From a phage, in the NCBI GenBank assembly GCA_026686805.1, contig GCA_026686805.1_3949.1: a stretch of DNA of 52,601 nucleotides; one strand, given 5' to 3'. The translations under genes and the position numbers were made by a program. This document shows, one piece after another, positions 1 through 52,540 of this stretch. Position 1 is the stretch's first letter, and each line of letters begins with the position of its first letter. Under the pieces are notes generated by a model. It searched no databases. It saw only the letters and a list, made by a program, of their open reading frames with translations, and was not told the DNA's origin.

Positions 1-58
1 CCAAAAACTTTATAGTTTATCTCAAGCAATAATGCTTTCCTAAACTGGAGATTCAAAA

Positions 59-589
59 ATGAACAAGTTCAAAGCTATCAACTACATTCGCTCAAATAGT
101 GTCATGTCTAAGCCTGTTAAGGATACCTACGAATTTCGTTGCAATGGTGAACACTTTGCTACCATCACCAAATCAAACAACGGGGCTTATTATATCCATC
201 GTCGTAATGTTTCTACGGTTGTAGTTTCTAACTTTATGCAAGCTGTAGCGGAACTCCTCCCGCTCTTCTTAGAAAAGTATGCCGTACAGTGTGAAAGTGT
301 TCGTGAATGCACTAAAACAGTGTTAAACGGTTATCGTATGGCTTATGAGCGCTCTTTAAAGAATCTCAATAAATACTACAAAGCACCGGAAGGTACTTCA
401 TCCACAGCCTACGGGGTAGGGGGCTTCAATGTCAGCCTTTACGAAGTGGAAGAAATCGAGCTTTATGACCATCGCCCAAATGGTTACGCTAAGACACTGG
501 GAGATGGGTTAATGCTGAATATCAAGAACTTAGAAAAAACTTTAAGAGAAATTGAAAAAGATATTGACGAGACAATCAAAAGTCTGTAA
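59..589 (+). CDS. hypothetical protein (176 aa)
   Basis: ORF from track; ATG preceded by conserved motif ctaaactggagattcaaaaATG with GGAG Shine-Dalgarno. Confidence 0.6.
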   Translation: MNKFKAINYIRSNSVMSKPVKDTYEFRCNGEHFATITKSNNGAYYIHRRNVSTVVVSNFMQAVAELLPLFLEKYAVQCESVRECTKTVLNGYRMAYERSLKNLNKYYKAPEGTSSTAYGVGGFNVSLYEVEEIELYDHRPNGYAKTLGDGLMLNIKNLEKTLREIEKDIDETIKSL

Positions 590-650
590 ATTGTCAATCA
601 ACGGGGGATAACCTCCCCCACTAAATAAAATCCTAAACTGGAGATTCAAA

Positions 651-914
651 ATGGAACACGTCGAATTGACCACACTTTTACAAATTGCAACCGACAAAGA
701 GGATGTAGCACTATTCCACCGTATTGAAAGTGATTTGTTCAATGGTGAAATCATCAAAGAGTCTTACGAAGTTGTCGGATTCAAAGATGGTAAAACATTT
801 GGATTCTTTGACCTCGACAAAGGCAACGCCGTTACAAAATATGATGTTTTATCTTGTGAGATTCTGACAAAATACAACGAAAAAAGGCTTGCAACATACG
901 CCAACATGCAGTAA
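651..914 (+). CDS. hypothetical protein (87 aa)
   Basis: ORF from track; same conserved upstream cassette (hairpin + ctaaactggagattcaaaATG). Confidence 0.55.
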   Translation: MEHVELTTLLQIATDKEDVALFHRIESDLFNGEIIKESYEVVGFKDGKTFGFFDLDKGNAVTKYDVLSCEILTKYNEKRLATYANMQ

Positions 915-979
915 ATTACTAATCAACGGGAGGTAATAACCTCCCACTAGATAAAAACCTTAAACTAGGAGATTCTAAA

Positions 980-1228
980 ATGGCTACTATCCGCGCTACT
1001 GTTAATGCTTATGGCTGCTACACTCTGGACGTTAAATTTGATATTGGTGGAACTGATGAATGCTTTTCATTAGTGAAGACAGTTATCAAGCAAGTTATCC
1101 CAGATTATAACCCTACTGATGACTTCTGGAAAGACGCTGTAAAAGAGGCATTAAACGACGAGCATCACTATCATTATTGGGGTGATTTGATTGTCTCCCT
1201 GTACTACAGCAAACAAGGTTACAACTAA
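980..1228 (+). CDS. hypothetical protein (82 aa)
   Basis: ORF from track; same conserved upstream cassette (ctaaactaggagattctaaaATG). Confidence 0.55.
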   Translation: MATIRATVNAYGCYTLDVKFDIGGTDECFSLVKTVIKQVIPDYNPTDDFWKDAVKEALNDEHHYHYWGDLIVSLYYSKQGYN

Positions 1229-1266
1229 TCGACGCAGCGGGGCTAAATAGCCCCAGATACCTTTAC

Positions 1267-1317
1267 AGCCCCTTTCTCATATGGATTCGATAGAATCTAT
1301 CTCATAGGGGCTTTTTT
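1267..1317 (+). terminator. putative intrinsic terminator after rightward early genes
   Basis: stem agcccct(1267-1273)/aggggct(1306-1312) followed by T6; the large loop contains a palindromic 20-mer; a shorter hairpin ggggctaaatagcccc lies just upstream. Confidence 0.35.
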
Positions 1318-1739
1318 ACGTCTATGTAATAGCCCCTATACAATCCTTTCCCTTCCCTTTCCAGAATCTATCCCACTGATTCGATAGAATCTATCTCGTA
1401 CCTTAAAAAGCAATAACTCTATAGGTTATTCTATAGCCCCTTATCAAATCAACTTAAATAAAGCCAATAACCCCAGAAAGGGGATTGCCCATTAAAACGC
1501 TCTATAAAGCTCTATAACAGCCTTATCAACCTAACTTAAGCAATCATATTAACCCACTCTAAAAAGCCCTTTATAGAGCTTCCCAGAGCCTTAAAAGAAT
1601 CTTATAAGGGTGAAAGCTTATAGGCTGGCTAGTATCTTGTGAATAACTAAACAATCCCCTTGATAGTCACTAAAAAGCATGTTATAGGGGCTATAAAGTT
1701 ACTTCAAAGTAACGTAAAAAAGGCTATAAAGTTACGTAA

Positions 1740-2720
1740 ATGCTAGCCCCCTTAACATTTTCTTAACAATTTCTTAACAATCCCTACATAGTTATGCTTG
1801 TTAGAGACTTGTTAGCCCCTTGTTAAATCTCTGTTAAGACCACGTAAAAGCCTTGTAAGAGTCTTTGGCATAGCCTTAAAAGCTCCTGTAAAGCCCTATA
1901 AAGAGCTATCCATACAGTTGAGGGGTAAATACTAGGAAGAGACTTAAAAGAGCTTATAAGGGGCTATAGAGAGCTTTTAAGAGGCATGTTTAGAGAATCA
2001 CTAAGAGGGAAAGGGAACGATAAGAAAGAGATAGTGACCATGTTAATAGTTTGTTAAAAAGATTAAACACTTGTTAGAAACTTGTTAATTATCTTTACAA
2101 AATAACTCTTTAAAATTAACTTGTTAGCTCTTGTTAGTCATCTGTTAAGACTCTGTAAAACCTATGTATCAACTGTTAAGAAACTGTTACACCCTTGTTA
2201 GTTCTGTTAAGAATCTATTAAGACCTCTGAAGAGATGTTAAGAGGATGTGAGAACTGTTAAGAGATTGTTAAGGATATTTTAAAATTTTGCAAAGTACTT
2301 GTAAGGGAGCTGTTAAGGGCTACCAAGCAGATATACATCTTCTACAGATATTTTTCAGTTCCTTCAAAGACCCTAAAAAATGACTTGATAGTCCTATTTT
2401 ATAAAAATTTTAAGATTCTGAATAATTACCTATACAGTCTTTTAAAAATACAGGTAGAAACAGGCTTATAAGATACCTTGTTAGTACCGTGTTAGACCTT
2501 GTGAGATAAGGTCTGTGAAGATATTCCTGTTAAGTTTGTTAAAACAGTCTATATAGAGGCTTAGTAATACCTAGTGAACACCTATAGAGGGTAACATAGC
2601 TAACATAGAGATTAAGAGGTGTATAGGAGCTTCTAAGAAGGTGTAGAGAGATGGTTAAGGTGATTGTATAGGTTGTTAAGAAGGCTTGTTAGAAGAGTGT
2701 TTAGATGGCTATTTAGAAGG
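1740..2720. repeat. array of short degenerate repeats (YTTGTTAR / CTGTTAAG / TTGTTAAG) in ~10-12 bp phase, non-coding
   Basis: seen directly, e.g. copies starting 1797,1808,1819,1831 and 2120,2130,2142,2173,2184,2195,2205,2215; no ORF of 60 aa or more in the region. Confidence 0.6.
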
Positions 2721-2880
2721 GCTATACAGAGGGCTATTAAGACCACTAGATAGATACTAAGATACTATATAGTACTATATAACTATATAGAGAGTAAGAT
2801 TAAGAAGGTTGTTAAGAAGGATAGATATTTTATTCACATATGATGGTGACCCAGAGGTTGGGACAACCGATAAAATTTTA

Positions 2881-2911
2881 TAAAAATTAAAAAGCCCCCG
2901 ATTAAGGAGGC
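2881..2911 (-). terminator. putative intrinsic terminator ending the leftward gene block
   Basis: imperfect hairpin gccccc/ggaggc followed on the minus strand by a T-rich run (A-run 2881-2893 on plus). Confidence 0.3.
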
Positions 2912-2923
2912 TCTTAAGATATT

Positions 2924-3472
2924 TTAAATCAGTGTTTCCAGAACTGTTTTTAGGGATGACTTAGTTGTCTGATAAAAATGAGTGAATCCATTGTTGTTAT
3001 CGAATATCTGCATCATGATATCATCTCCCTTGATTGGGTACACTCGGATATCATAGTGAAAACCATTAAAGACACAAGAACCACTACAGAATGAACTAAA
3101 ATCGTCTACTGAGATGTACTCTTCATGTCCTGTGATTTTTATACAAATACCTTTACTCGGTCTCTTAGGGTTGATATCTTCCATCACAGACATACTCTGT
3201 CCACCAAGAGATACCATAGTGACCACTTTACGGTTCTTCTGTCTAAAGTACATCTTAACTTTCTGCAAAGTGTCTTCATAGAACGGATAAGACCTTTCTA
3301 CAAAGATTCCTTCAAGTGGCTCTTTACCATTTTCAACTTCTCTGTTATGCCGTACTGCAAAGATAATTTGTTCGAACCAGTCAAGATTTTCTTCGGAGAG
3401 TGCTTCCCGAATATCACCCCAATCAAGGACTAGGTAGTTACCTTCAACATCTTTTAAGTTATCTTTTTCCAT
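2924..3472 (-). CDS. hypothetical protein
   Basis: track ORF 2924..3517 begins with TTG and overlaps the upstream gene; internal ATG at 3472 has a GGTGTGA RBS-like sequence and removes the overlap, so the start is uncertain. Confidence 0.45.
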   Translation of the reverse strand: MEKDNLKDVEGNYLVLDWGDIREALSEENLDWFEQIIFAVRHNREVENGKEPLEGIFVERSYPFYEDTLQKVKMYFRQKNRKVVTMVSLGGQSMSVMEDINPKRPSKGICIKITGHEEYISVDDFSSFCSGSCVFNGFHYDIRVYPIKGDDIMMQIFDNNNGFTHFYQTTKSSLKTVLETLI

Positions 3473-5566: not shown

Positions 5567-6098
5567 TCAATAGTGCGATAAATTCGTCGCCTTTACCTTT
5601 CCACGGGCTGAATGAAGGGATATGCTCACGAATAGCCTCAATAACCGTCTTAAGTGCTGTATTTTTCATCCACCAATCAGAATCTGCTGATGCCACTACG
5701 TAGTATCCACCTTCATCAGTCAGAATTGGCTCTGAGATACATGGAGAAATCAAAGTTGTGACGATTGAACCATTGTTCATGTAGTATGTACGCTTAATAA
5801 CCTTTTCAAGAAGCTTGTGAAGGTCACCGAACAGTGTTACAAGTTCTTTGTGGTCAATGTCTTTTTCGAGGCTTGCTCGATACTTCAATAGTGCAGCATC
5901 AACCTCTCTGTCATTGAATTTGAAGTACTGGACTTCATCAACAAGGCAAACACTGATATTGTTGACATTCATAGTCAACTTACAGACTTTTGCAGGAGAA
6001 TTGATACTTGGTTGAAAAAGTGCAACACAACCTTCAATGTTCCCAAAATGTTGGACTAGTGTTACTTGTGGGGTAATATTCTGTTGCTCTTCGGACAT
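5517..6098 (-). CDS. hypothetical protein (193 aa)
   Basis: ORF from track. Confidence 0.5.
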   Translation of the reverse strand: MSEEQQNITPQVTLVQHFGNIEGCVALFQPSINSPAKVCKLTMNVNNISVCLVDEVQYFKFNDREVDAALLKYRASLEKDIDHKELVTLFGDLHKLLEKVIKRTYYMNNGSIVTTLISPCISEPILTDEGGYYVVASADSDWWMKNTALKTVIEAIREHIPSFSPWKGKGDEFIALLSEESNKRSALLPKKYS

Positions 6099-10150: not shown

Positions 10151-10392
10151 AGATAATCCTCTTGTCTTCTGTAATTTTGAAAGAACAGGTACAGACCAAT
10201 TTCAGAGGATGAATAGTAGATTGACTCTACCCTTTTTGATTCCTTACAGTGATTGGTATTCTTACCTTTCTTCGGTTTATTTGATTTTCTCATTAAGTCT
10301 CCTTTGTAGAACAAGGCAGACCTACAGCTTTAAGTAAGATGGTACAGTAATCCATACAACAAGTCAAGAACTATTGCAAGTTAAAAAAGTTG

Positions 10393-10416
10393 TTGACAAA
10401 GTACTTGACAAGGTGT
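10393..10416 (+). promoter_or_regulatory. conserved element gttgacaaWgtacttgacaaggtgt with tandem TTGACA boxes (copy 1)
   Basis: near-identical copy at 52541-52565; lies in divergent intergenic region upstream of the + strand gene at 10543. Confidence 0.35.
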
Positions 10417-12411: not shown

Positions 12412-12420
12412 AAAGTTTTA

Positions 12421-12457
12421 AAAAGGGTATTGACAATGTGTTTGATACCCTTTAATA
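12421..12457 (+). promoter_or_regulatory. sigma70-like promoter TTGACA-17-TAATAT embedded in a perfect 9-bp inverted repeat, upstream of the tRNA array
   Basis: -35 ttgaca 12429-12434, 17-nt spacer, -10 taatat 12452-12457; inverted repeat aaagggtat(12421-12429)/atacccttt(12444-12452). Confidence 0.45.
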
Positions 12458-12576
12458 TGTTCTACATAGAAACGAAACGAGAGCTTTTCTAAGATACTGA
12501 AAAATATTTTAAAAAAGTTCTTGACAACCACTAAAAAATAATGTTAAAGTGGTTACATAGAGTTTGAAAAGTTTAT

Positions 12577-12653
12577 CTCTGTTTAGCTCAGCTTGGTAGA
12601 GCGTTCCGTTTGGGGCGGTAAGGCCGGAGGTTCAAGTCCTCCAACAGAGACCA
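12577..12653 (+). tRNA. tRNA-Pro (anticodon TGG)
   Basis: hand-folded cloverleaf: acceptor ctctgtt/aacagag, D-arm gctcagcttggtagagc, anticodon loop ttTGGgg, T-loop ttcaagt, CCA encoded. Confidence 0.65.
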
Positions 12654-12660
12654 AATTAAT

Positions 12661-12738
12661 GTTCCAGTAGACAAAATGGTAAAGTCACCACTCTTTCAAA
12701 GTGGATATCTGAGGGTTCAAATCCCTTCTGGAACGCCA
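12661..12738 (+). tRNA. tRNA-Glu (anticodon TTC)
   Basis: acceptor gttccag/ctggaac, anticodon stem ccact/agtgg, loop ctTTCaa, T-loop ttcaaat, CCA encoded. Confidence 0.75.
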
Positions 12739-12745
12739 GTTTTGA

Positions 12746-12817
12746 CAGAAGACCAATTACAGCAAACTTAATCTACTCATCTGACACGAAATCGGACAAA
12801 GAAGATATTTGGTCTGG
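12746..12817 (+). repeat. bipartite spacer element copy a (CAGAAGACC-nnWTWCAGCAA ... GGTCTGG)
   Basis: seen directly; 5' block 12746-12765, 3' block 12811-12817; agacc/ggtct can pair. Confidence 0.5.
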
Positions 12818-12828
12818 TCATTGAGAAT

Positions 12829-12905
12829 TGCGGGTATAGAGAAAGGGCGTCTCACATGTCTCATTAGCATGGTATCGGCAGGTTCGACTCCTGCACCCGC
12901 CTCCA
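12829..12905 (+). tRNA. tRNA with CAT anticodon (Met or Ile-lysidine type)
   Basis: anticodon stem catgt/gcatg, loop ctCATta, T-arm gcagg-ttcgact-cctgc, CCA encoded; acceptor has a mismatch at one end so boundaries +/-1. Confidence 0.6.
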
Positions 12906-12911
12906 ATTTTG

Positions 12912-12971
12912 CAGAAGACCGTATTCAGCAACAAAATACTTTTTGCGGATAAAAGAAAAAACACGGTCTGG
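12912..12971 (+). repeat. bipartite spacer element copy b
   Basis: gcagaagaccgtattcagcaa ... acacggtctgg. Confidence 0.5.
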
Positions 12972-12982
12972 CAATGTATTAA

Positions 12983-13059
12983 GGTTAGGAAGCACATAAG
13001 GTATGTGCGGTCGCCTGTTAAGCGAATGGCACAGGGTTCGAATCCCTGACTAACCGCCA
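12983..13059 (+). tRNA. tRNA-Asn (anticodon GTT)
   Basis: acceptor ggttagg/actaacc, D-stem gcac/gtgc, anticodon loop ctGTTaa, T-arm caggg-ttcgaat-ccctg, CCA encoded. Confidence 0.7.
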
Positions 13060-13067
13060 AATTAAAT

Positions 13068-13155
13068 GTGTCGTTATCCCGTAGATGGTAGCGGTGGGGA
13101 CTGTAAATCCCTTGTCATTGAGACTCGGTAGGTTCGACTCCTACACGGCACACCA
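13068..13155 (+). tRNA. tRNA-Tyr (anticodon GTA), long variable arm
   Basis: acceptor gtgtcgt/acggcac, anticodon stem gggga/tccct, loop ctGTAaa, long variable arm, T-arm gtagg-ttcgact-cctac, CCA. Confidence 0.7.
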
Positions 13156-13160
13156 ATAAA

Positions 13161-13237
13161 GGCTATGTAGTTTAACTGGAGAAAATACTCCCCTGTCACG
13201 GGAGATGATGTGAGTTCAAGTCTCATCGTAGCCGCCA
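13161..13237 (+). tRNA. tRNA-Asp (anticodon GTC)
   Basis: acceptor ggctatg/cgtagcc, anticodon stem ctccc/gggag, loop ctGTCac, T-loop ttcaagt, CCA. Confidence 0.75.
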
Positions 13238-13298
13238 ATTTTGAGAGGGCTATTTAGCCCCTCCCTTAAAGAGTTCTTACGAGTATTCTTTAAAGGAG

Positions 13299-13372
13299 CA
13301 GAAGACCAAATACAGCAAGAATGTATGAAATTTCAAGCCAATTTAATTTTGAAAATTTAAAACTTGGTCTGG
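13299..13372 (+). repeat. bipartite spacer element copy c
   Basis: agcagaagaccaaatacagcaa ... aacttggtctgg. Confidence 0.5.
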
Positions 13373-13385
13373 CTCAACAAATTTA

Positions 13386-13517
13386 CAGAAGACCGTTTAC
13401 AGCAAAACTTAAACAATCTATTTCTCCGGTAAAGAAAAGGCGAAGGTTCGATTCCTTCACTCGGCAGATGTCGAGTTGGTGTAATGGTAGCACTTAAGAT
13501 GATAAACAACGGTCTGG
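13386..13517 (+). repeat. bipartite spacer element copy d, enclosing a tRNA-like relic
   Basis: acagaagaccgtttacagcaa ... aacaacggtctgg; interior holds T-arm/acceptor-like and acceptor/D-arm-like segments. Confidence 0.5.
13442..13495 (+). other. tRNA-like relic in reversed half order (T-arm + 3' acceptor strand immediately followed by complementary 5' acceptor strand + D-arm)
   Basis: gaagg-ttcgatt-ccttc + actcggc then gtcgagt + ggtgtaatggtagcac; no complete cloverleaf can be drawn. Confidence 0.35.
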
Positions 13518-13666
13518 TAATTATCTTTGTAGATAAGTTATTAAGCTTACCTGTGAGTATGCGACCACAAAGGGTGAAAGGGTAAATTCTAGATTTAAAC
13601 CCAACAAGGCACATCGCTACAGACCTTAAGCAAGTCTGGGTAGCTTATCTACAAAGGTAATTTAAT

Positions 13667-13742
13667 GGAAGTGTAGCAGAATGGTGATGCGGCAGACTTT
13701 TAATCTGACAGGCGATGGGTTCGAATCCCTCCACTTCTACCA
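13667..13742 (+). tRNA. tRNA-Lys (anticodon TTT)
   Basis: acceptor ggaagtg/cacttct, anticodon loop ctTTTaa, T-loop ttcgaat, CCA; T-stem weak in my fold. Confidence 0.6.
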
Positions 13743-13746
13743 AAAT

Positions 13747-13823
13747 GGTTCAGTCGCAGATAAGGTAATGCAAGGGTCTCATAAGCCCTATGAATGTGGG
13801 TTCAATTCCCATCTGAACCTCCA
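13747..13823 (+). tRNA. tRNA with CAT anticodon (Met, initiator or Ile-lysidine type)
   Basis: acceptor ggttcag/ctgaacc, anticodon stem agggt/gccct, loop ctCATaa, T-loop ttcaatt, CCA. Confidence 0.7.
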
Positions 13824-13831
13824 ATTTATCG

Positions 13832-14326
13832 GTGATACTTATGATTTGTGCTAACAAAGATTGCGGAAATGAAGCCGTTAAAGGTGGAAAATTTTGCTCA
13901 CGCTCTTGTTCTGCAAAAGTGAACAACAAGAAACACCCAAAGAGAAGTCAGGAAGGCTCTTGCCATTCATGCGGAAAGGTAACGCCAAAAGCAAGAAAAT
14001 ACTGTGACGAATGTATTTCAGGTGGAGTCATGAAAAAACATAAGACCCATCATGAAAAAAGCAAAGCTAAATCACTGCACGTTAAAAAGTCTCGTGATAG
14101 ACTGAAGAAGGCTTTAGTTGATTACAAGGGTGGTTGTTGTTCAATTTGTGGTTACAATAGGTGCATAAAGGCTCTAGAGTTTCACCACTTAGACCCTAAC
14201 ACAAAAGACTTCACAGTAGGTCAAAAACACTACTCACTGGCTACAATGCAGTCTGAAGTTGATAAGTGTGTCTTGCTTTGTGCAAATTGCCATAGAGAAG
14301 TACACGAAGGGGTAACAATGCTGTGA
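13832..14326 (+). CDS. HNH homing endonuclease (Cys-rich N-terminus, C-terminal HNH motif)
   Basis: C-terminal ...CSICGYNRC...LEFHHLDPNTKDF...CVLLCANCHREVHEG = HNH signature; embedded in tRNA array; stop codon overlaps start of tRNA-Ile. Confidence 0.75.
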   Translation: MILMICANKDCGNEAVKGGKFCSRSCSAKVNNKKHPKRSQEGSCHSCGKVTPKARKYCDECISGGVMKKHKTHHEKSKAKSLHVKKSRDRLKKALVDYKGGCCSICGYNRCIKALEFHHLDPNTKDFTVGQKHYSLATMQSEVDKCVLLCANCHREVHEGVTML

Positions 14327-14395
14327 AAGCACATATGGATGTGCATTCGGCTGATAACCGAAAGGTAGAAGGTTCGAATCCTTCTCACAGTACCA
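14320..14395 (+). tRNA. tRNA-Ile (anticodon GAT)
   Basis: acceptor gctgtga/tcacagt, D-stem gcac/gtgc, anticodon stem ttcgg/ccgaa, loop ctGATaa, T-arm gaagg-ttcgaat-ccttc, CCA. Confidence 0.75.
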
Positions 14396-14410
14396 ATTTC
14401 AATAAAGTTG

Positions 14411-14439
14411 TTGACATTGAGATGCGACTACTTTATAGT
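14411..14439 (+). promoter_or_regulatory. sigma70-like promoter TTGACA-17-TATAGT inside the tRNA array
   Basis: -35 ttgaca 14411-14416, 17-nt spacer, -10 tatagt 14434-14439. Confidence 0.5.
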
Positions 14440-14445
14440 AACCTT

Positions 14446-14610
14446 AGTTTTCGTTGCGTAGCGTCTATTTTGCAAATTTAAAATAAATGCAAACGACAAT
14501 GTTTTTCTGGCAGTAGCTTGATAGGCTAAACACCAGTGAGGTCTTCCAATCCCTCATCAAAGAATTTGGCGTACTAGCCCACGGTATGATTAATAAGGTG
14601 GGCATCTTTA
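14446..14610 (+). ncRNA. candidate small structured RNA downstream of promoter (no coding potential, no tRNA fold)
   Basis: hairpins tttgca/tgcaaa and gcccac(14577-14582)/gtgggc(14598-14603) followed by atcttt; purely structural inference. Confidence 0.2.
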
Positions 14611-14643
14611 AGGGCTTTCTAAGAGAGTCTTTAAAGATAATTA

Positions 14644-14725
14644 CGGGGCGTATCTCAGCGGTCTTCTAAACCGCCGTTAACCGAGTAAGTGGAGTATGCG
14701 GGTTCGAGTCCTGCCGCCTCGACCA
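14644..14725 (+). tRNA. atypical tRNA-like gene, possible tRNA-Arg (anticodon TCT); D-arm not placeable, 23-nt region between anticodon and T arms
   Basis: acceptor cggggcg/cgcctcg, perfect anticodon arm gcggt-ctTCTaa-accgc, T-arm gcggg-ttcgagt-cctgc, CCA; geometry non-canonical. Confidence 0.35.
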
Positions 14726-14868
14726 ATTTAGTTAGCAGATTACTTAGACGACCTTATCGGGTCTCCGTGTAAGGAGGTGGTCTGTATCTCATGTTTTCCA
14801 GAACATGTAAATAATCTGAGAAGGGGCTTTACAGTGTTGAGATAATACGGTAAGCTTCGAATTATAGT

Positions 14869-14951
14869 ATGGGACGATGTTAAGACTCTAAGGCATGAGC
14901 AACGGCTTCCAACACCGTTTCAAAGGGGTTCAACTCCTCCGTCCCATGCCA
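14869..14951 (+). tRNA. atypical tRNA-like gene, possible tRNA-Trp (anticodon CCA); 7 extra nt between acceptor and D-arm
   Basis: acceptor atgggac/gtcccat (7/7), anticodon arm acggc-ttCCAac-accgt, T-loop ttcaact, CCA. Confidence 0.35.
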
Positions 14952-14964
14952 AAGTCTTATTAGG

Positions 14965-15052
14965 GGTAGGTAGCGGCTAATGGTAGCCAAACTGTCTTGA
15001 AAACAGTTGCCACTGTAGAGATACGGTGAGGGTTCGACTCCTTTACTTACCG
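14965..15052 (+). tRNA. tRNA-Ser (anticodon TGA), long variable arm
   Basis: acceptor ggtaggt/acttacc, perfect anticodon stem actgt/acagt, loop ctTGAaa, 20-nt variable arm, T-arm gaggg-ttcgact-ccttt; CCA not encoded. Confidence 0.7.
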
Positions 15053-15310
15053 CCTAATAAGATTTTAAAGCCAAGCTTCATTCGGATGTTGCTTTGGTAT
15101 CCCTCGTGTATTGTCGTACACACTGATAAAACACCTAGTAGGTGTCACGGAGAAGAGATAATATCAAGCTCTCCAAAGGTTCTAGTCACCGGATTAAACA
15201 AGACTATGCAAAGACCTTTTTAGGTCTTTTTAGAGGGCTTCTAAGGTTATTACGGCTTGTTGTGGAACCTTGTTGCTTAGGTTCTTAGAAGTTCTCTAAA
15301 AAGATTTAAT

Positions 15311-15388
15311 GGGAGATTGACGGTAATTGGTAAACCTATCTCGCTTAGAACGAGATGTTTGAGGGTTCGAATCCCTTGTCTCCTACCA
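15311..15388 (+). tRNA. tRNA with TAG anticodon (Leu by anticodon), short variable loop
   Basis: acceptor gggagat/gtctcct, perfect anticodon stem tctcg/cgaga, loop ctTAGaa, T-loop ttcgaat, CCA; class I architecture unusual for Leu. Confidence 0.55.
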
Positions 15389-15395
15389 AATTAAT

Positions 15396-15471
15396 GCAGG
15401 TGTAGCAAAATGGTTATGCGGCTGACTCTTAATCAGTAAGACGATGGGTTCAATTCCCTCCACCTGTACCA
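15396..15471 (+). tRNA. tRNA-Lys (anticodon CTT)
   Basis: acceptor gcaggtg/cacctgt, anticodon stem gctga/tcagt, loop ctCTTaa, T-loop ttcaatt, CCA. Confidence 0.65.
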
Positions 15472-15476
15472 AAAAT

Positions 15477-15552
15477 GGGGTCATAGTTTATATGGTTAAA
15501 ATTCGAGTTTTGCAAACTTGGGAACTGAGTTCAATTCTCAGTGACTCCACCA
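15477..15552 (+). tRNA. tRNA-Ala (anticodon TGC)
   Basis: acceptor ggggtca/tgactcc, anticodon stem cgagt/acttg, loop ttTGCaa, T-loop ttcaatt, CCA. Confidence 0.65.
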
Positions 15553-15558
15553 ATTAGT

Positions 15559-15633
15559 GCATCCATAGTTTAAACGGGAAAATTACAGTCTTCCAAACTG
15601 AGGTTGAGGGTTCGATTCCCTCTGGATGCTCCA
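15559..15633 (+). tRNA. tRNA-Gly (anticodon TCC)
   Basis: acceptor gcatcca/tggatgc, anticodon loop ctTCCaa, T-arm gaggg-ttcgatt-ccctc, CCA. Confidence 0.7.
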
Positions 15634-15640
15634 AATTAAT

Positions 15641-15716
15641 GCTCCTATCGTATAATTGGCTATTACGGTTGCCTTGTAAGCAACTTATCAGGGTTCGAAT
15701 CCTTGTGGGAGCACCA
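15641..15716 (+). tRNA. tRNA-Thr (anticodon TGT)
   Basis: acceptor gctccta/tgggagc, perfect anticodon stem gttgc/gcaac, loop ctTGTaa, T-loop ttcgaat, CCA. Confidence 0.75.
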
Positions 15717-15718
15717 AT

Positions 15719-15811
15719 TCAGAGGTCAAGTGAAAGACCGCTGGTGTCAACTGAAGACCGTAACAAATTCCACGGAGTTGAGTTAGCGGCACAACTTCAG
15801 ACCTCTTTCAC
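15719..15811 (+). other. structured spacer element (inverted repeat agaggtc ... gacctct, internal gaagaccgtaacaaattc block)
   Basis: seen directly; related to the CAGAAGACC-containing spacer elements; function unknown. Confidence 0.3.
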
Positions 15812-15886
15812 ACTCGCTTAGTTTATATGGTAAAACATCACCCTTACAAGATGAAGAAAAAGGTTCAAGTCCTTTAGTGAGTACCA
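15812..15886 (+). tRNA. tRNA-Val (anticodon TAC)
   Basis: acceptor actcgct/agtgagt, anticodon stem tcacc/gatga (one mismatch), loop ctTACaa, T-arm aaagg-ttcaagt-ccttt, CCA. Confidence 0.65.
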
Positions 15887-15887
15887 T

Positions 15888-15965
15888 GTTCCAGTATCCC
15901 AATTGGCAGAGGATGCAAGCTCAAACCTTGTATTAGTGACGGTTCGAATCCGTCTTGGAACACCA
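15888..15965 (+). tRNA. tRNA with CAA anticodon (Leu by anticodon), short variable loop
   Basis: acceptor gttccag/ttggaac, anticodon stem gcaag/cttgt, loop ctCAAac, T-arm gacgg-ttcgaat-ccgtc, CCA. Confidence 0.55.
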
Positions 15966-15981
15966 ATTTTAGGAGAACACT

Positions 15982-16089
15982 ATGAGCAATAAGTCAATTG
16001 CAAAAAAGTTTAGAGCGTCATACCTAAACAGACGTAAAAACAAAGTTTGTGAAAAACTGTATGGTGTTCTCGTAGGTAAGCAGGATTAG
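15982..16089 (+). CDS. possible small ORF (35 aa, basic) overlapping the 5' end of tRNA-Arg
   Basis: AGGAG RBS 6 nt upstream of ATG; below the track's 60-aa cutoff; overlap with tRNA makes it doubtful. Confidence 0.2.
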   Translation: MSNKSIAKKFRASYLNRRKNKVCEKLYGVLVGKQD

Positions 16090-16155
16090 TTCAAATGGAT
16101 AGAGCAACAGTCTACGAAGCTGTTAATAGGGGTTCGAATCCCTTATCCTGCACCA
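16080..16155 (+). tRNA. tRNA-Arg (anticodon ACG)
   Basis: acceptor gcaggat/atcctgc, D-arm gttcaaatggatagagc, anticodon stem acagt/gctgt, loop ctACGaa, T-loop ttcgaat, CCA. Confidence 0.75.
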
Positions 16156-16174
16156 ATTTAAAGAGGCTATTTAG

Positions 16175-16732
16175 ATGAGATATTTGAAGTATGCTTCATG
16201 GATTTTCTTAGCTTTGTTAGAGCCATTTGCAGCAATCTTAGCAGTTATCTTAGCACCTTTTGTAGTTCCATTCTACAGTGAGAAGAAAGGACACTTACCT
16301 TTCGGGTTCAGATGGATGGAGACATATGACAACCCAATTGATGGTGATGAAGGTCACGTTAAAAGATGGGCTAATATCAGATGGATTGGTAAACTAGGTG
16401 TCTACATGCAAAGAGTCGGATGGCTCTGGAGAAACAAAGCTTATAACTTCTCTTACCATGTATTAGGAAGAGATGTAAAAGATGTTACTAAGTGGAAAGG
16501 TAATATCAACGTAAGTTCTGACCCTGAAGATAATCAGACAGGTTATCTACTAATGTGGAACAGTAATGCTTGGGGATTATTCGCTTTTATCCCATCAATT
16601 AAAATCTTTGGTAAACAATTTTACTGGAGAATTTATATTGGATGGAAACTAAAAAGTGTTGTCCCAGAAGAAAGAGCATTCTCAAGGGAAAGAGTTATGT
16701 TGGCATTCTTTATTCATCCACTGAGAAAGTAA
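16175..16732 (+). CDS. hypothetical protein with hydrophobic N-terminus (185 aa), embedded in tRNA array
   Basis: ORF from track; N-terminal hydrophobic segment WIFLALLEPFAAILAVILAPFVVPF. Confidence 0.5.
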   Translation: MRYLKYASWIFLALLEPFAAILAVILAPFVVPFYSEKKGHLPFGFRWMETYDNPIDGDEGHVKRWANIRWIGKLGVYMQRVGWLWRNKAYNFSYHVLGRDVKDVTKWKGNINVSSDPEDNQTGYLLMWNSNAWGLFAFIPSIKIFGKQFYWRIYIGWKLKSVVPEERAFSRERVMLAFFIHPLRK

Positions 16733-16740
16733 AGATTTAA

Positions 16741-16816
16741 AGGGGATTAGTTTACAAGGTTAAAACCTCGGTCTTTGAAATCGAAGAAGTTGGTTCAATT
16801 CCAACATCCCCCGCCA
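16741..16816 (+). tRNA. tRNA-Gln (anticodon TTG)
   Basis: acceptor aggggat/atccccc (1-72 mismatch), anticodon stem tcggt/atcga, loop ctTTGaa, T-arm gttgg-ttcaatt-ccaac, CCA. Confidence 0.65.
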
Positions 16817-16818
16817 AT

Positions 16819-16897
16819 GCTCCATTACTCCAATTGGCAGAGAGGCCAGACTTAAAATCTGTGTTATGTATCGGTTCGAATCCGATATGGAGTACCA
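16819..16897 (+). tRNA. tRNA with TAA anticodon (Leu by anticodon), short variable loop
   Basis: acceptor gctccat/atggagt, anticodon stem caga/tctg, loop ctTAAaa, T-arm atcgg-ttcgaat-ccgat, CCA. Confidence 0.5.
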
Positions 16898-16902
16898 AAT
16901 TT

Positions 16903-16978
16903 AGCGGCATAGCATAACTGGCAATGCAGCAGTCTCTGAAGCTGTCTTATTAAGGTTCAAATCCTTATGCCGCTGCCA
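16903..16978 (+). tRNA. tRNA-Gln (anticodon CTG)
   Basis: acceptor agcggca/tgccgct, D-stem gcat/atgc, anticodon loop ctCTGaa (stem with two G-U pairs), T-arm taagg-ttcaaat-cctta, CCA. Confidence 0.55.
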
Positions 16979-17009
16979 CTTCTAAGGATTCTTACGAGAG
17001 TCCTTAAAT

Positions 17010-17085
17010 GTGGCCTTATCATAAACGGTAATGACCCATGCTGTGAACATGGTCTATACGGGTTCAAATCCCGTAGGTCACCCCA
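17010..17085 (+). tRNA. tRNA-His (anticodon GTG)
   Basis: acceptor gtggcct/aggtcac, perfect anticodon stem ccatg/catgg, loop ctGTGaa, T-arm acggg-ttcaaat-cccgt, CCA. Confidence 0.7.
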
Positions 17086-17091
17086 ATTTAT

Positions 17092-17167
17092 AGTCCAAGT
17101 AGCTTATATGGTTAAAGCGCGTGTCTGAAAAACATGAGAAGAGTGTTCAAATCCCACTGGACTACCA
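17092..17167 (+). tRNA. tRNA-Phe (anticodon GAA)
   Basis: acceptor (t)agtcca/tggact(a), anticodon stem cgtgt/acatg, loop ctGAAaa, T-loop ttcaaat; 5' boundary +/-1. Confidence 0.6.
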
Positions 17168-17183
17168 ATTTCAAAGGTGCTTA

Positions 17184-17918
17184 ATGAAAGAGATGACAGA
17201 ACAAGGTAAGGAGATTTTCAATCTCTTAAAAACCGGTAAAGGGTTTTCTAACCCCCTTATTACTGGTGCAGCAGTTCTCGGTGGAACCGTAGCTGCCTCT
17301 ACATCACTTGTAAGCTCTATTAGCTCTGTATCAGACCCTACAGTAAAGGATAAGCTTGTTGCTGCTGGACTTACAACAGTTCTGCTTAACAGCTTTACCA
17401 CGAGTCTGACAAGCACTACATCAACTACCAAAACACTAACAGATTACGGTCAAAAATCCATTGATGAGTTTTCATCACGTATGCAGGTAGCAAAAGGTTA
17501 TTCTAATGTTATGGGTGCAGCAGGTGAACAAGTTGGCTGTACACCATTTAGTGGTATTATGGGTGTTGCTACAGAGTATGGTCAAAAAGCTATTGATACG
17601 ATTAACAGTGCACTAGATAGTGTTAATGGTGTGTTAAGTGACTTACAAGATGCTATTGACAAAGGTCTTGATACTATTTCTGATTTAGCTGAGCAAGCTG
17701 TTAGTAAGATTAATGAAGGTATTTCAAAAATTACAGCTTATGCAGATGAAGTTGTGCAGATGATTGAAGAAGAAGCTGCTCTTATTGCAGAGTACCTTAA
17801 AACGAATATCAATGGGTTCTTAGCAGGTATCTTACCAGACTGGTTTGATGATGCTTGTAAAACTGGTGTAATTGACACTATTGCAACACCAGAAATGAAG
17901 AACGCATTACAGAAATAA
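17184..17918 (+). CDS. hypothetical Ser/Thr-rich protein (244 aa), embedded in tRNA array
   Basis: track ORF 17121..17918 overlaps tRNA-Phe; ATG at 17184 has RBS aaaggtg and clears the tRNA. Confidence 0.5.
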   Translation: MKEMTEQGKEIFNLLKTGKGFSNPLITGAAVLGGTVAASTSLVSSISSVSDPTVKDKLVAAGLTTVLLNSFTTSLTSTTSTTKTLTDYGQKSIDEFSSRMQVAKGYSNVMGAAGEQVGCTPFSGIMGVATEYGQKAIDTINSALDSVNGVLSDLQDAIDKGLDTISDLAEQAVSKINEGISKITAYADEVVQMIEEEAALIAEYLKTNINGFLAGILPDWFDDACKTGVIDTIATPEMKNALQK

Positions 17919-17920
17919 AT

Positions 17921-18013
17921 GGAAGATTAACCCTAAAAGGTAAGGGAGCAGTTTGCTAAACTGCCAGTAGCTGAGAAATCGGTGTACCAGTTCAAGTCTG
18001 GTATCTTCCTCCA
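17921..18013 (+). tRNA. tRNA-Ser (anticodon GCT), long variable arm
   Basis: acceptor ggaagat/atcttcc, perfect anticodon stem gcagt/actgc, loop ttGCTaa, ~21-nt variable arm, T-arm accag-ttcaagt-ctggt, CCA. Confidence 0.75.
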
Positions 18014-18017
18014 ATTT

Positions 18018-18093
18018 GAATCCGTGACAGAAATGGCTATGTGCCTGTCTGCAAAACAGGTTTATAAGGGTTCGAGTCCCTTCGGATTCTCCA
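18018..18093 (+). tRNA. tRNA-Cys (anticodon GCA)
   Basis: acceptor gaatccg/cggattc, perfect anticodon stem cctgt/acagg, loop ctGCAaa, T-arm aaggg-ttcgagt-ccctt, CCA. Confidence 0.75.
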
Positions 18094-18255
18094 ATTTATT
18101 TTACTCTCTCTCAATTAAAATAATAATAATGCCCTGCTATAAGTATTCTTCCTTTCGCTACCGAAGAGTATTTTTAGACAGGGCTTTTTTACAGAGTTAT
18201 ACTTTATAAGAAGCCTTATACAGTATGTCTCTGACGTACATTGTGGTTTCTCCTT

Positions 18256-52481: not shown

Positions 52482-52540
52482 TTTTACTCCCTCTAAAATC
52501 ATTAACCTCATACATTACTGCAAAAAATTATAAAAAGCAA

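What the first reader, a model, noticed from the sequence alone, without database searches (positions are those of the whole stretch)
30..982. Conserved hairpin plus translation-initiation cassette repeated before each of three small early genes
Upstream of the ATGs at 59, 651 and 980 the same block recurs: a GC-stem hairpin (gggggataacctccccc at 603-619, gggaggtaataacctccc at 929-946), then actaRataaaaMcYtaaactRgagattcWaaaATGG. This looks like modular promoter or RNA-processing plus RBS units for co-regulated early genes, possibly for attenuation between consecutive genes.
Basis: seen in the sequence. Interest (0 to 1): 0.5.

Follow-up and report, generated by a model that had tools for sequence, protein, structure and literature searches.

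The report
Repeated promoter–hairpin–RBS cassettes, Felix O1-like phage
Each small early gene at the start of this Felix O1-like phage sequence is preceded by a copy of one compact expression cassette (host-type promoter, GC stem-loop, standard ribosome-binding leader). This is the kind of element called a PeSL in T4-like phages, and relatives gain and lose genes by recombination between the copies.

Summary
The copy before ATG 59 shares only the ribosome-binding block and has a weak A/U hairpin.

The window is a Felixounavirus. Its three genes end a cluster of 10-19 small genes of unknown function, and in relatives nearly every one is preceded by such a cassette.

- an A-rich tract
- a -35 hexamer (TTGACR or TTGCAA)
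- a 17-nt spacer
- a -10 hexamer (TAAATT) whose TAA is the stop codon of the upstream gene
- 10 nt ending in CAAC
- a GGGG...CCCC hairpin
- a conserved leader with a GGAG Shine-Dalgarno sequence
- the ATG

So each block is a sigma-70 promoter whose transcript should begin 2-4 nt before the hairpin. Promoter, hairpin and leader reassort among copies. Gene gains and losses between phages are exact gene-plus-cassette units: Felix O1 lacks gene 651-914 and has one cassette where the window has two.

In architecture this matches PeSLs, the promoter-early stem-loops of T4-like phages, without sequence homology. No transcript data exist, so promoter activity and the hairpin's role are inferred. I class it as a new member of a known kind, of moderate interest.

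The parts
11..16 (+). -10 hexamer TATAGT of cassette 1. Its -35 (TTGCAA, 17 nt upstream) falls before the window start.
   Evidence: Identical full-length copies in IMG/VR contigs read TTGCAA-N17-TATAGT-...-CCTAAACTGGAG. The same hairpin-less type occurs in GEC_vB_B1.
24..37 (+). Weak A/U-rich hairpin AAGCAATAATGCTT, in the position held by the GC hairpin in the other copies.
   Evidence: RNA fold: 5 bp, and the 71-nt segment as a whole is not more stable than shuffles (z = -0.34). The GEC_vB_B1 copy keeps AAGC...GCTT with a different loop.
38..58 (+). Conserved leader and Shine-Dalgarno block of cassette 1 (CCTAAACTGGAG at 39-50, GGAG at 47-50).
   Evidence: Homology to KEP1 (93.7%) begins exactly at position 38.
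59..589 (+). Gene 1, 176 aa, function unknown (phrog_4725). Homologue of Felix O1 ORF22.
   Evidence: ORF22 is maximally expressed at 5 min (PMC3185647 Table 3).
542..563 (+). A-rich tract upstream of the -35 of cassette 2 (UP-element-like), inside the coding sequence of gene 1.
   Evidence: A-rich tract at the same register in most copies printed.
564..569 (+). -35 hexamer TTGACG of cassette 2, inside gene 1.
587..592 (+). -10 hexamer TAAATT of cassette 2. TAA at 587-589 is the stop codon of gene 1.
   Evidence: TTGACG-17-TAAATT, 9 of 12 matches. In 137 of 137 copies the hexamer at this register reads TAnnnT.
600..600 (+). Predicted transcription start: the A of the conserved CAAC, 8 nt after the -10 and 3 nt before the hairpin.
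   Evidence: Inferred from sigma-70 promoter geometry and the invariant 10-nt distance between -10 and hairpin. Not mapped experimentally.
603..619 (+). GC stem-loop GGGGGA-TAACC-TCCCCC.
   Evidence: the hairpin alone folds at -10.2 kcal/mol. Covariance-model hit at 597-624.
620..650 (+). Leader ACTAAATAAAAT plus Shine-Dalgarno block CCTAAACTGGAG (632-643, GGAG at 640-643).
651..914 (+). Gene 2, 87 aa, function unknown (phrog_7022). Absent from Felix O1.
867..888 (+). A-rich tract upstream of the -35 of cassette 3, inside gene 2.
889..894 (+). -35 hexamer TTGCAA of cassette 3, inside gene 2.
   Evidence: The promoter scores only 8 of 12 consensus matches, below the threshold of the scan.
912..917 (+). 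-10 hexamer TAAATT of cassette 3. TAA at 912-914 is the stop codon of gene 2.
925..925 (+). Predicted transcription start (A of CAAC).
   Evidence: Inferred in the same way as position 600.
928..945 (+). GC stem-loop GGGAGGT-AATA-ACCTCCC.
   Evidence: the 76-nt segment has z = -2.99. Hairpin alone -11.5 kcal/mol. Coordinates. Covariance-model hit at 922-950.
946..979 (+). Leader ACTAGATAAAAA plus the long Shine-Dalgarno allele CCTTAAACTAGGAG (958-971, GGAG at 968-971).
980..1228 (+). Gene 3, 82 aa, function unknown (phrog_4559). Homologue of Felix O1 ORF23 and the last gene of the cluster.
1239..1254 (+). Cassette-type hairpin GGGGCTAAATAGCCCC, followed by CAGATAC and CTTTACA (1261-1267). This is a cassette remnant with no gene after it.
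1267..1317 (+). Canonical intrinsic terminator closing the cluster: stem AGCCCC...GGGGCT followed by T6.
   Evidence: the segment has z = -4.24. Listed as t23 in Felix O1 (PMC3185647 Table 2).

Best explanation
Each block is a self-contained early-expression cassette of a Felix O1-like phage, built like the PeSLs (promoter-early stem-loops) of T4-like phages.

Shown by sequence:
- An A-rich tract, a -35 hexamer (TTGACG at 564-569; TTGCAA at 889-894), a 17-nt spacer and a -10 hexamer TAAATT (587-592; 912-917). The TAA of the -10 is the stop codon of the upstream gene.
- Ten nucleotides ending in CAAC, then a GGGG...CCCC stem-loop (603-619; 928-945).
- An A/U-rich leader with a GGAG Shine-Dalgarno sequence 7-8 nt before the ATG.

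Inferred:
- Host sigma-70 RNA polymerase starts at the conserved CA, about 8 nt after the -10 (A600, A925), so every small gene has its own early promoter.
- The new mRNA begins 2-4 nt before the stem-loop. A stem-loop that close to the 5' end is known to protect E. coli mRNAs from 5'-end-dependent decay by RppH and RNase E.
- The same stem-loop lies 13 nt after the upstream stop codon. For transcripts arriving from upstream it would act as a 3' barrier or partial attenuator, insulating neighbouring units.

Shown by comparison: the 60-100-bp cassettes are direct repeats at which homologous recombination adds, deletes and swaps gene-plus-cassette units and reassorts the promoter, hairpin and leader sub-blocks.
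For: Identity of the window:
- It is a Felixounavirus: 258 phage records match, the best at about 93%.

Register:
- 50 type-A copies from 8 relatives and the window line up without gaps.
- With IMG/VR loci added there are 137 copies. The -35 hexamer is TTGCAA, TTGACA, TTGACG, TTGACT, TTGATT or TTGACC in 119 and TAGACA in 16. The -10 hexamer reads TAnnnT in 137 of 137.

Independence from shared ancestry:
- Among 13 spacer-distinct upstream contexts, TTG sits at the exact -35 offset in 10, against 0-2 at each of 16 neighbouring offsets. The background TTG frequency is 0.022.
- The one recurrent non-TTG form, TAGACA, contains the upstream gene's TAG stop codon.

Hairpin:
- 40 distinct sequences all fold.
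- On a covariance-model alignment of 112 hits (52 distinct rows), 94.7% of cells pair, two pairs show changes on both sides (10 cells), and 0 of 500 shuffles reach the observed covariation score.
- G-U is the commonest pair at one position (26 of 37 rows). This fits a structure in the sense-strand RNA.

Conservation:
- The same architecture occurs in Mooglevirus and, with diverged sequence and compensatory stem changes (GGGG/CCCC to GGTG/CACC), in Kolesnikvirus.

Recombination:
- Window 41-654 and 911-1273 both align to Felix O1 and overlap there on a single cassette. Gene 651-914 plus one cassette is therefore a clean indel.
- Window 38 onwards is 93.7% identical to KEP1, while 3-37 is absent from KEP1's hairpin-bearing cassette and aligns, within a 78%-identical stretch spanning 3-136, to the hairpin-less cassette of GEC_vB_B1.
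- The gene-order table shows that insertions and replacements are cassette-plus-gene units.
- There are 39 combinations of promoter context, hairpin class and Shine-Dalgarno allele, and 14 of 24 gene families are preceded by more than one combination.
- Michonne carries a cassette with no gene after it.

Timing and analogy:
- Felix O1 ORF16, 20, 21 and 22 of this cluster peak at 5 min.
- Promoter and terminator/attenuator activities were shown experimentally for PeSLs of phages RB49 and phi1 (PMC2839356).
Against: - No transcript 5' or 3' ends have been mapped for any Felix O1-like phage. Promoter activity, start sites and hairpin function are all inferred.
- Promoter-like hexamer pairs are not enriched in 1-3000 as a whole: 12 found against 8.7 expected. 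Cassette 3 matches only 8 of 12 consensus positions. The case therefore rests on conserved register, not on match quality.
- Where the -35 lies in coding sequence, the protein C-terminus (L/I-D-E...) is also conserved, so that conservation is not independent evidence.
- Copies are paralogues that exchange sequence, so copy counts overstate independence.
- Covariation in the hairpin is modest. Sliding the 3' partner by one column still leaves 91% of cells paired, because the arms are G-runs and C-runs.
- The 5'-cap role cannot be the general function of the hairpin. [quoted passage not shown] Cassette 1 of the window has no GC hairpin.
- No U-tract follows the hairpin in the window copies or in any type-A copy printed (the 3' flank reads ACTAAATAAAG, or AACAATCC in the variant class), so efficient intrinsic termination is unlikely.
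Confidence: 0.7

Rival explanations
1. There are no internal promoters. The cluster is one long early transcript from the strong upstream promoters, and the hairpins are intercistronic processing or stabilising elements. An endonuclease cuts in the A/U-rich leader and the hairpin blocks 3'-5' exonucleases, giving stable monocistronic pieces, as RNase III sites do in the T7 early region and REP elements do in E. coli operons.
For: A hairpin follows every stop codon within 13-40 nt and is followed by an A/U-rich single-stranded stretch. Strong double promoters exist upstream in relatives (TTGACAATACCCCTTGACA). The G-U pairs point to an RNA-level structure.
Against: This does not explain TTGnnn-N17-TAnnnT at a fixed register in 13 unrelated upstream contexts. 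It also does not explain why the -10 stays TAnnnT while neighbouring loop positions vary in type B. The stems are 5-8 bp, far shorter than RNase III substrates. No Rfam family matches. The two models are not exclusive, since read-through transcripts would still carry the hairpins.
Confidence: 0.12
2. The hairpins are ordinary rho-independent terminators that end each gene's transcript, as several GenBank records annotate them. The shared downstream block is simply a strong ribosome-binding site.
For: WebGeSTer-based annotation in ASO1A marks them as terminators, and the KhF3 and wV8 records do likewise. The stems are GC-rich, with free energies of about -10 to -14 kcal/mol for most variants.
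Against: No T-run follows the hairpin in the window copies or in any type-A copy printed; the flank is ACTAAATAAAG. The terminator scan of 1-3000 does not call them. The real terminator that ends the cluster has T6 (1312-1317). Full termination before every gene would require a promoter after each one, which leads back to the cassette model.
Confidence: 0.06
3. The repeats are recombination sites first and expression signals second. The GGGG...CCCC hairpins would be recognised by a structure-specific phage recombinase, so that gene-plus-cassette units move as discrete cassettes, as at integron attC sites.
For: Indels are exact cassette-plus-gene units. Sub-blocks reassort. Michonne has a cassette without a gene. 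The PeSL authors raised the same possibility and detected excised circles in phages RB49 and phi1 (PMC2839356).
Against: Crossover points differ between cases: at the -10 in Felix O1 against the window, and at the Shine-Dalgarno block in the window against KEP1. This fits general homologous recombination over 20-60-bp identities better than a fixed cleavage site. No candidate recombinase was looked for. The hairpin loops are not conserved.
Confidence: 0.07
4. The similarity reflects only recent tandem duplication and gene conversion of intergenic DNA, with no selected function beyond a ribosome-binding site.
For: Many copies are identical: 39 of 112 covariance-model hits share one sequence. 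Felix O1 and wV8 list them simply as direct repeats.
Against: The architecture persists in three genera while the sequence drifts. The hexamers, their 17-nt spacing and stem pairing are retained through substitutions. Stop codons are built into the hexamers.
Confidence: 0.03

Closest known systems
PeSLs (promoter-early stem-loops) of T4-like phages RB49 and phi1, and of the PST/T4 and nt-1/KVP40 pairs (Arbiol et al. 2010, PMC2839356; Comeau et al. 2014, PMC4122927)
   Same: - Short composite motifs repeated in one hyperplastic region full of small genes of unknown function.
- A sigma-70-type -35/N17/-10 with an AT-rich tract upstream.
- A Gn-loop-Cn stem-loop placed between the hexamers, over the -10 or just downstream of it.
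- The Shine-Dalgarno sequence and ATG at the 3' end, and the upstream stop codon at the 5' end.
- Indels and replacements between relatives are bounded by the motifs.
- The type-B consensus of this subfamily (TTTACA-N17-TAnnnT) resembles the PST/T4 PeSL consensus TTTACW-N17-TAYWAT.
   Different: - A different virus subfamily (Ounavirinae), with no detectable sequence homology: a BLAST search with the cassette hits only Ounavirinae records.
- In the two full window copies the stem-loop is transcribed at about +4 to +21 of the predicted mRNA.
- Stop codons are embedded in the -10 or the -35 hexamer.
- The leader between hairpin and ATG is itself highly conserved.
- Promoter and terminator activity and mini-circles have not been tested here.
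Promoter-coupled terminators of bacteria (Fletcher et al. 2026 preprint, doi 10.64898/2026.08.19.745784)
   Same: Transcript-ending and transcript-starting signals for tandem genes share one short stretch of DNA. A stem-loop overlaps promoter elements.
   Different: In that class the stem-loop DNA supplies the -35 and the T-tract supplies the spacer, with the 3' end about 10 bp upstream of the next start. The window copies have the hairpin after the -10 and no T-tract. One Kolesnikvirus copy does fit that layout: TTTACA in the terminator loop, then a T-run, then TATACT.
5'-terminal stabilising stem-loops of E. coli mRNAs, such as the ompA 5' UTR (Emory, Bouvet and Belasco 1992; cited from memory, not checked here)
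   Same: A stable hairpin predicted within 2-4 nt of the 5' end, followed by an unstructured leader and a ribosome-binding site.
   Different: The start site is only predicted. The hairpin is absent from cassette 1 and lies upstream of the predicted start in type-B cassettes.
T7 early-region RNase III sites between genes 0.3 and 1.3
   Same: A stem-loop in every intergenic gap of an early gene cluster transcribed by the host polymerase.
   Different: T7 sites are long, irregular helices of about 20 bp or more on a single transcript. Here the stems are 5-8 bp and each is paired with its own promoter.
Direct repeats already listed for Felix O1 (57-bp and 39-bp repeats; PMC3185647) and wV8 (DR_1 to DR_9 in NC_012749)
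   Same: These are the same sequences. The 39-bp repeat TTGACACTGGTTTTTAGATAGATTAAATTACACATCAAC is the type-A promoter, and the 57-bp repeat is the type-B core.
   Different: They were reported only as repeats, without a function. The same paper states that secondary promoters and temporal control in this phage are unknown.

Membership tests
PeSL (promoter-early stem-loop) cassettes | A short motif repeated in intergenic gaps of a hyperplastic region rich in small genes of unknown function. | tested here: met
   There are 14-19 cassette-preceded genes within about 6-7 kb in KEP1 and Michonne. The window has 3 copies in its first 1 kb and none in the remaining 51.6 kb. The three proteins have no Pfam or PDB match and fall in PHROGs of unknown function.
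PeSL (promoter-early stem-loop) cassettes | A sigma-70-like -35 and -10 with a spacer of about 17 bp and an AT-rich tract upstream. | tested here: met
   Met at sequence level only. TTGnnn or TAGACA, then N17, then TAnnnT, in 135 of 137 copies. TTG sits at the exact offset in 10 of 13 distinct contexts against 0-2 at other offsets. A-rich tracts are visible.
PeSL (promoter-early stem-loop) cassettes | A stable stem-loop, typically Gn-loop-Cn, within or next to the promoter. | tested here: met
   40 variants all fold. 94.7% of cells pair across 52 distinct rows. The hairpin lies 10 nt after the -10 in type A and spans the spacer and -10 in type B.
PeSL (promoter-early stem-loop) cassettes | The Shine-Dalgarno sequence and start codon of the downstream gene at the 3' end, and the upstream stop codon at the 5' end. 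| tested here: met
   GGAG lies 7-8 nt before each ATG. TAA lies within the -10 hexamer (587-589 and 912-914).
PeSL (promoter-early stem-loop) cassettes | Differences between related phages (insertion, deletion, replacement) are bounded by the motifs. | tested here: met
   The Felix O1 against window indel of gene 651-914, the window against KEP1 breakpoint at position 38, and the gene-order table.
PeSL (promoter-early stem-loop) cassettes | Promoter and terminator/attenuator activity demonstrated, and excised mini-circles detected. | not testable with these tools
   This needs reporter fusions, transcript-end mapping and inverse PCR. No transcriptome data for this phage group were found in the library.
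PeSL (promoter-early stem-loop) cassettes | Sequence homology to the T4-like PeSLs. The authors do not require this, since PeSL sets of different T4-like lineages also differ in sequence. | tested here: not met
   A blastn search with a 96-nt type-A cassette finds 252 records, all Felix O1-like by organism name except one labelled Staphylococcus. The relationship is therefore analogy, not common descent.
Rho-independent (intrinsic) terminator | A GC-rich hairpin immediately followed by a run of U. | tested here: not met
   The hairpin is present, but its 3' flank is ACTAAAT or ACTAGAT in the window and A-rich in every type-A copy printed. The scan does not call it. The cluster's real terminator at 1267-1317 has T6.
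RNase III processing site (T7 early type) | A double-stranded stem of roughly two helical turns. | tested here: not met
   The stems are 6 bp and 7 bp in the window and at most 8 bp in relatives.
Promoter-coupled terminator (Fletcher et al. 2026 preprint) | A terminator stem-loop and T-tract that form the -35 and spacer of the next promoter. | tested here: not met
   In the window copies the hairpin lies downstream of the -10 and there is no T-tract.
5'-terminal stabilising stem-loop | A stem-loop within a few nucleotides of the mapped 5' end that prolongs mRNA half-life. | tested here: inconclusive
   The geometry fits, because the distance from -10 to hairpin is a constant 10 nt. The start site is predicted rather than mapped, and half-life cannot be tested here.

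The most novel reading that the evidence does not exclude
The cassettes could be the exchange sites of a gene-cassette pool in a strictly lytic phage subfamily. In this reading, gene-plus-cassette units excise as small circles, as PeSL mini-circles do, and re-insert at any other cassette, possibly helped by a factor that recognises the GGGG...CCCC hairpin. Ounavirinae would then trade ready-to-express host-takeover or anti-defence genes in an integron-like manner. The invariant leader (ACTAAATAAAGT-CCTAAACTGGAG) might additionally be the common target of one post-transcriptional regulator that shuts off all these genes together.
Probability: 0.12. Interest if true: 0.65.

Novelty: new member of a known kind. 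Interest (0 to 1): 0.4.

Why it matters
Felix O1-like phages are widely used for Salmonella and E. coli typing and biocontrol. The genome papers on Felix O1 and VpaE1 state that it is unknown how their transcription, especially early transcription, is organised (PMC3185647; PMC4690856).

Reading the 'direct repeats' as promoter/stem-loop/RBS cassettes has three consequences:
- It gives a concrete, testable map of a dozen or more early promoters per genome.
- It explains why gene content in this region differs between close relatives.
- It shows that the PeSL design recurs outside the T4-like phages, which suggests a general way for large lytic phages to keep a swappable set of accessory genes expressed.

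The cassettes are also natural insertion points and ready-made expression signals for engineering these phages.

Tried and rejected
- MAFFT alignment of the hairpin variants was not structure-aware and was unusable for pair counts. I replaced it with a covariance-model alignment. The seed alignment A3 held five real variants and three sequences that I edited to equal length (s6x-s8x). It served only as a search model, and the pair counts were made on real matches. Such an alignment leans towards the model's structure.
- One harvesting regex was too strict and recovered only 12 variants, so those chimera numbers are not used.
- A first build_rna_model call failed on a malformed structure string.
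- Rfam search of 1-3000 found nothing relevant: one sub-threshold Phe-leader hit on the other strand.
- Pfam and PDB searches of the three proteins found nothing, and PHROGs gave only families of unknown function.
- Literature searches found no transcript mapping of any Felix O1-like phage and no earlier link between PeSLs and this group. The wV8 and VpaE1 papers do not discuss the repeats.
- For type-B cassettes I considered taking the first, stop-codon-overlapping TAAAGT as the -10. I rejected this by eye on four upstream contexts from the alignment, none of which has a -35-like hexamer 17 nt upstream. The internal TTTACA-N17-TAnnnT is invariant.
- I rejected an extended -10 (TGn) reading, since one search reports no TG before the second hexamer.
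- I considered an RNase E site in the leader. By eye, and from my recollection of the reported preference, the leader has no U-rich motif. This was not scored.
- Not attempted: a search for RegB- or RegA-like regulators among the window's proteins.
Full report
**What the window is.** Bases 1-3000 match 258 phage records, all Felix O1-like myoviruses. The best are KEP1 and KEP3 at about 93%. The three + strand genes (59-589, 651-914, 980-1228) are the last genes of a cluster of small + strand genes. In relatives this cluster runs for about 6-7 kb from a phosphatase gene to a gene-free stretch of roughly 1.5-1.7 kb. The window starts inside the intergenic region before the third-from-last gene. 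The three proteins have no Pfam or PDB match and fall in PHROGs of unknown function.

**Check of the observation.** The shared block exists and is not chance. The 21-nt core finds 2 matches at up to 3 mismatches against 0.02 expected. The third copy differs by two single-base insertions. The copy before ATG 59 shares only positions 38-61. Upstream it has a -10 TATAGT (11-16) and a weak A/U hairpin (24-37) and no GC stem. Identical full-length copies in IMG/VR show its promoter as TTGCAA-N17-TATAGT, so its -35 lies just before the window start. A profile HMM and a covariance model find no further copies in the other 51.6 kb of the window.

**Anatomy.** Printing the upstream regions of all cluster genes in relatives showed the same unit before most of them. 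Anchoring 50 copies on the first G of the hairpin puts every element in register without gaps:
- an A-rich tract
- a -35 hexamer
- 17 nt
- a -10 hexamer
- 10 nt ending in (T)CAAC
- a GGGG...CCCC hairpin
- ACTAAATAAAGT
- CCTAAACTGGAG or CCTTAAACTAGGAG
- about 7 nt
- the ATG

In the window this gives -35 at 564-569 (TTGACG) and 889-894 (TTGCAA), and -10 at 587-592 and 912-917 (both TAAATT). The TAA of each -10 is the stop codon of the upstream gene. The -35 and the A-rich tract lie inside that gene.

A second cassette type (type B, 110 copies, none in the window) reads TTTACA-N17-TAnnnT, with a GGGGCTTA...TAAGCCCC hairpin spanning the spacer and the -10.

**Promoter evidence and its limits.** Across 137 type-A copies from 39 loci:
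- The -35 is TTGCAA (41 copies), TTGACA (35), TTGACG (18), TTGACT (16), TAGACA (16), TTGATT (8) or TTGACC (1).
- The -10 reads TAnnnT in all 137.

Because copies are paralogues, I collapsed them to 13 contexts with unrelated spacers. TTG sits at the exact offset in 10, against 0-2 at each of 16 neighbouring offsets, with a background TTG frequency of 0.022. The recurrent exception, TAGACA, contains the upstream gene's TAG stop. In other contexts the TGA stop lies inside TTGACA.

In type B, T1, A2 and T6 of the -10 are kept in 106 of 110 copies, while the three positions between them vary across ten forms.

The limits are these:
- Generic promoter-like matches are not enriched in 1-3000: 12 found against 8.7 expected.
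- Cassette 3 matches only 8 of 12 consensus positions.
- Where the -35 is in coding sequence, the protein C-terminus is also conserved.
- No transcript ends have been mapped in this phage group.

Supporting context comes from end-point RT-PCR in Felix O1. ORF22, the homologue of gene 59-589, and ORFs 16, 20 and 21 of the cluster peak at 5 min. ORF23, the homologue of gene 980-1228, peaks at 25 min.

**Hairpin.** Forty distinct sequences occupy the hairpin position and all fold; most variants have free energies of -10 to -15 kcal/mol. On a covariance-model alignment of 112 hits (52 distinct rows):
- 94.7% of cells pair.
- Two pairs show changes on both sides (10 cells).
- 0 of 500 shuffles reach the observed covariation score.
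- Sliding the 3' partner lowers the score, although a slide of one column still gives 91% pairing because the arms are G-runs and C-runs.

G-U is the commonest pair at one position. The G-rich arm is always 5' on the sense strand. Both points indicate a structure in the sense-strand RNA rather than a symmetric DNA site.

No U-run follows the hairpin in the window copies or in any type-A copy I printed, whereas the terminator that closes the cluster (1267-1317) has T6. The 'terminator' labels in some GenBank records are therefore not supported as canonical intrinsic terminators.

**Conservation beyond the genus.** Mooglevirus (Michonne, Silverhawkium, ESh21) has the same two cassette types with different hairpins, such as GGGGAGG-GAAA-CTTCCCC and GGGGC-AAGCAA-GCCCC. 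Kolesnikvirus (Erwinia phage Pistou) has diverged versions:
- TTTACA-N17-TAGTAT with a GGTGTTTA...TAAGCACC hairpin, a compensatory change relative to GGGG/CCCC.
- TTGACA-N18-TAAAAT, where the -10 is the hairpin loop.
- A changed leader, CCCTTATAAAGGAATC.

The design is thus kept across the subfamily while the sequence drifts.

**Recombination.**
- Felix O1 lacks gene 651-914. Window 41-654 and 911-1273 both align to it and overlap there on one cassette, so the difference is exactly one gene plus one cassette between direct repeats.
- The window is 93.7% identical to KEP1 from position 38 on. Positions 3-37 are absent from KEP1's hairpin-bearing cassette and align, within a 78%-identical stretch spanning 3-136, to the hairpin-less cassette of GEC_vB_B1.
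- A gene-order table for nine genomes shows that every insertion or replacement is a cassette-plus-gene unit. The same gene is preceded by type A in one phage and by type B or another form elsewhere.
- Promoter context, hairpin class and Shine-Dalgarno allele occur in 39 combinations, and 14 of 24 gene families are preceded by more than one.
- Michonne carries a complete cassette whose ATG is fused to the next cassette.

**Most likely mechanism.**
- Shown: the composite architecture, its conservation, and its role as a recombination boundary.
- Inferred, about 0.7: each cassette is a host sigma-70 early promoter with a standard ribosome-binding site, giving every small gene its own transcript.
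- Inferred with less confidence: in the window's two full copies, transcription starts at the CA about 8 nt after the -10 (A600, A925). The mRNA would then begin 2-4 nt before the stem-loop and be protected from 5'-end-dependent decay. The same stem-loop, 13 nt past the upstream stop codon, would act as a 3' barrier or partial attenuator for read-through transcripts.
- Because the hairpin lies upstream of the predicted start in type-B and Kolesnikvirus cassettes, its shared role across cassette types is more likely the second one, or a DNA-level role in recombination.

**Comparison with known systems.** The closest match is the PeSL of T4-like phages. A PeSL is a sigma-70-like promoter with an AT-rich upstream tract, a Gn-loop-Cn stem-loop in variable position relative to the hexamers, and a Shine-Dalgarno sequence and ATG at the 3' end. 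PeSLs are concentrated among genes of unknown function in hyperplastic regions, mediate indels, and have experimentally shown promoter and terminator activity and excised circles. All sequence-level defining features are met here. The functional ones cannot be tested, and there is no sequence homology. I therefore file this as an analogous member of that kind in another subfamily.

The repeats themselves were already listed for Felix O1 (39-bp and 57-bp direct repeats) and annotated as DR_1 to DR_9 in wV8, without interpretation. The Felix O1 and VpaE1 papers say that promoters and temporal control are unknown. The window copies do not fit a canonical terminator, an RNase III site or a promoter-coupled terminator.

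**Verdict.** This is a new member of a known kind, of moderate interest.

Noticed in passing
window 1229-2925: About 1.7 kb with no sizeable ORF lies between the convergent gene clusters. It is packed with CTTGTTA(A/G) and CTGTTAAG units at 11-nt spacing (1797-1857, 2063-2094, 2123-2220, 2246-2320), inverted copies TTCTTAACAA (1752-1791) and GGGGCTATAAAG units. It looks iteron-like and is conserved in relatives. Felix O1-like phages have terminal repeats of about 600 bp, whose position relative to this region I did not check.
   Followed up: partly
window 1267-1317 and 1378-1400: The terminator closing the cluster has about 25 extra nt in its loop compared with relatives, which have AGCCCCTATTTAAAGGGGCTTTTTT. 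The extra sequence includes GATTCGATAGAATCTATCTC, which is repeated 94 nt downstream.
   Followed up: no
window 10382-10416, 12419-12453, 12498-12532, 52531-52565: A second repeat family looks like strong promoters with two overlapping -35 boxes (TTGACAaaGTACTTGACAA). Relatives have a similar pair (TTGACAATACCCCTTGACA) upstream of the gene 59 homologue.
   Followed up: no
window about 12600-18100: Many repeats of GGTTCGAATCC-type sequence look like tRNA T-arms. This is presumably the tRNA cluster known in Felix O1, which has 22 tRNAs. I did not run a tRNA finder.
   Followed up: no
L006 (Citrobacter phage Michonne) 2178-2355: A complete type-B cassette ends in an ATG that is fused directly to the CTTTACA of the next cassette. 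This is a cassette with no gene, as expected after a gene is lost by recombination.
   Followed up: yes
window 587-589 and 912-914; relatives L001 404-432 and 3016-3110: Stop codons of upstream genes are built into promoter hexamers: TAA in the -10 TAAATT or TAAAGT, TGA in the -35 TTGACA, and TAG in TAGACA. The last case explains the only recurrent non-TTG -35.
   Followed up: yes
window 39-50 and 632-643 versus 958-971; all loci: In the copies printed, the T and A insertions of the Shine-Dalgarno block occur together: CCTAAACTGGAG or CCTTAAACTAGGAG, apart from point variants such as CCTAAATTGGAG. No form with only one of the two insertions appeared. In the two window copies folded, each allele keeps a 3-bp helix around the loop UAAACU. 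The leader is more conserved than a Shine-Dalgarno sequence alone would need.
   Followed up: partly
L130 (Erwinia phage Pistou) about 5900-6000: One Kolesnikvirus intergenic region has a canonical terminator (GGGGGCTTTACAGCCCC plus T6) with TTTACA in its loop, followed 18 nt later by TATACT. This is the promoter-coupled-terminator layout described in a 2026 preprint.
   Followed up: no
GenBank records MZ726791, KT184315 and NC_012749: The U-tract-less cassette hairpins are annotated as rho-independent terminators, in wV8 even on the opposite strand, or as plain direct repeats. These annotations probably mislead.
   Followed up: partly
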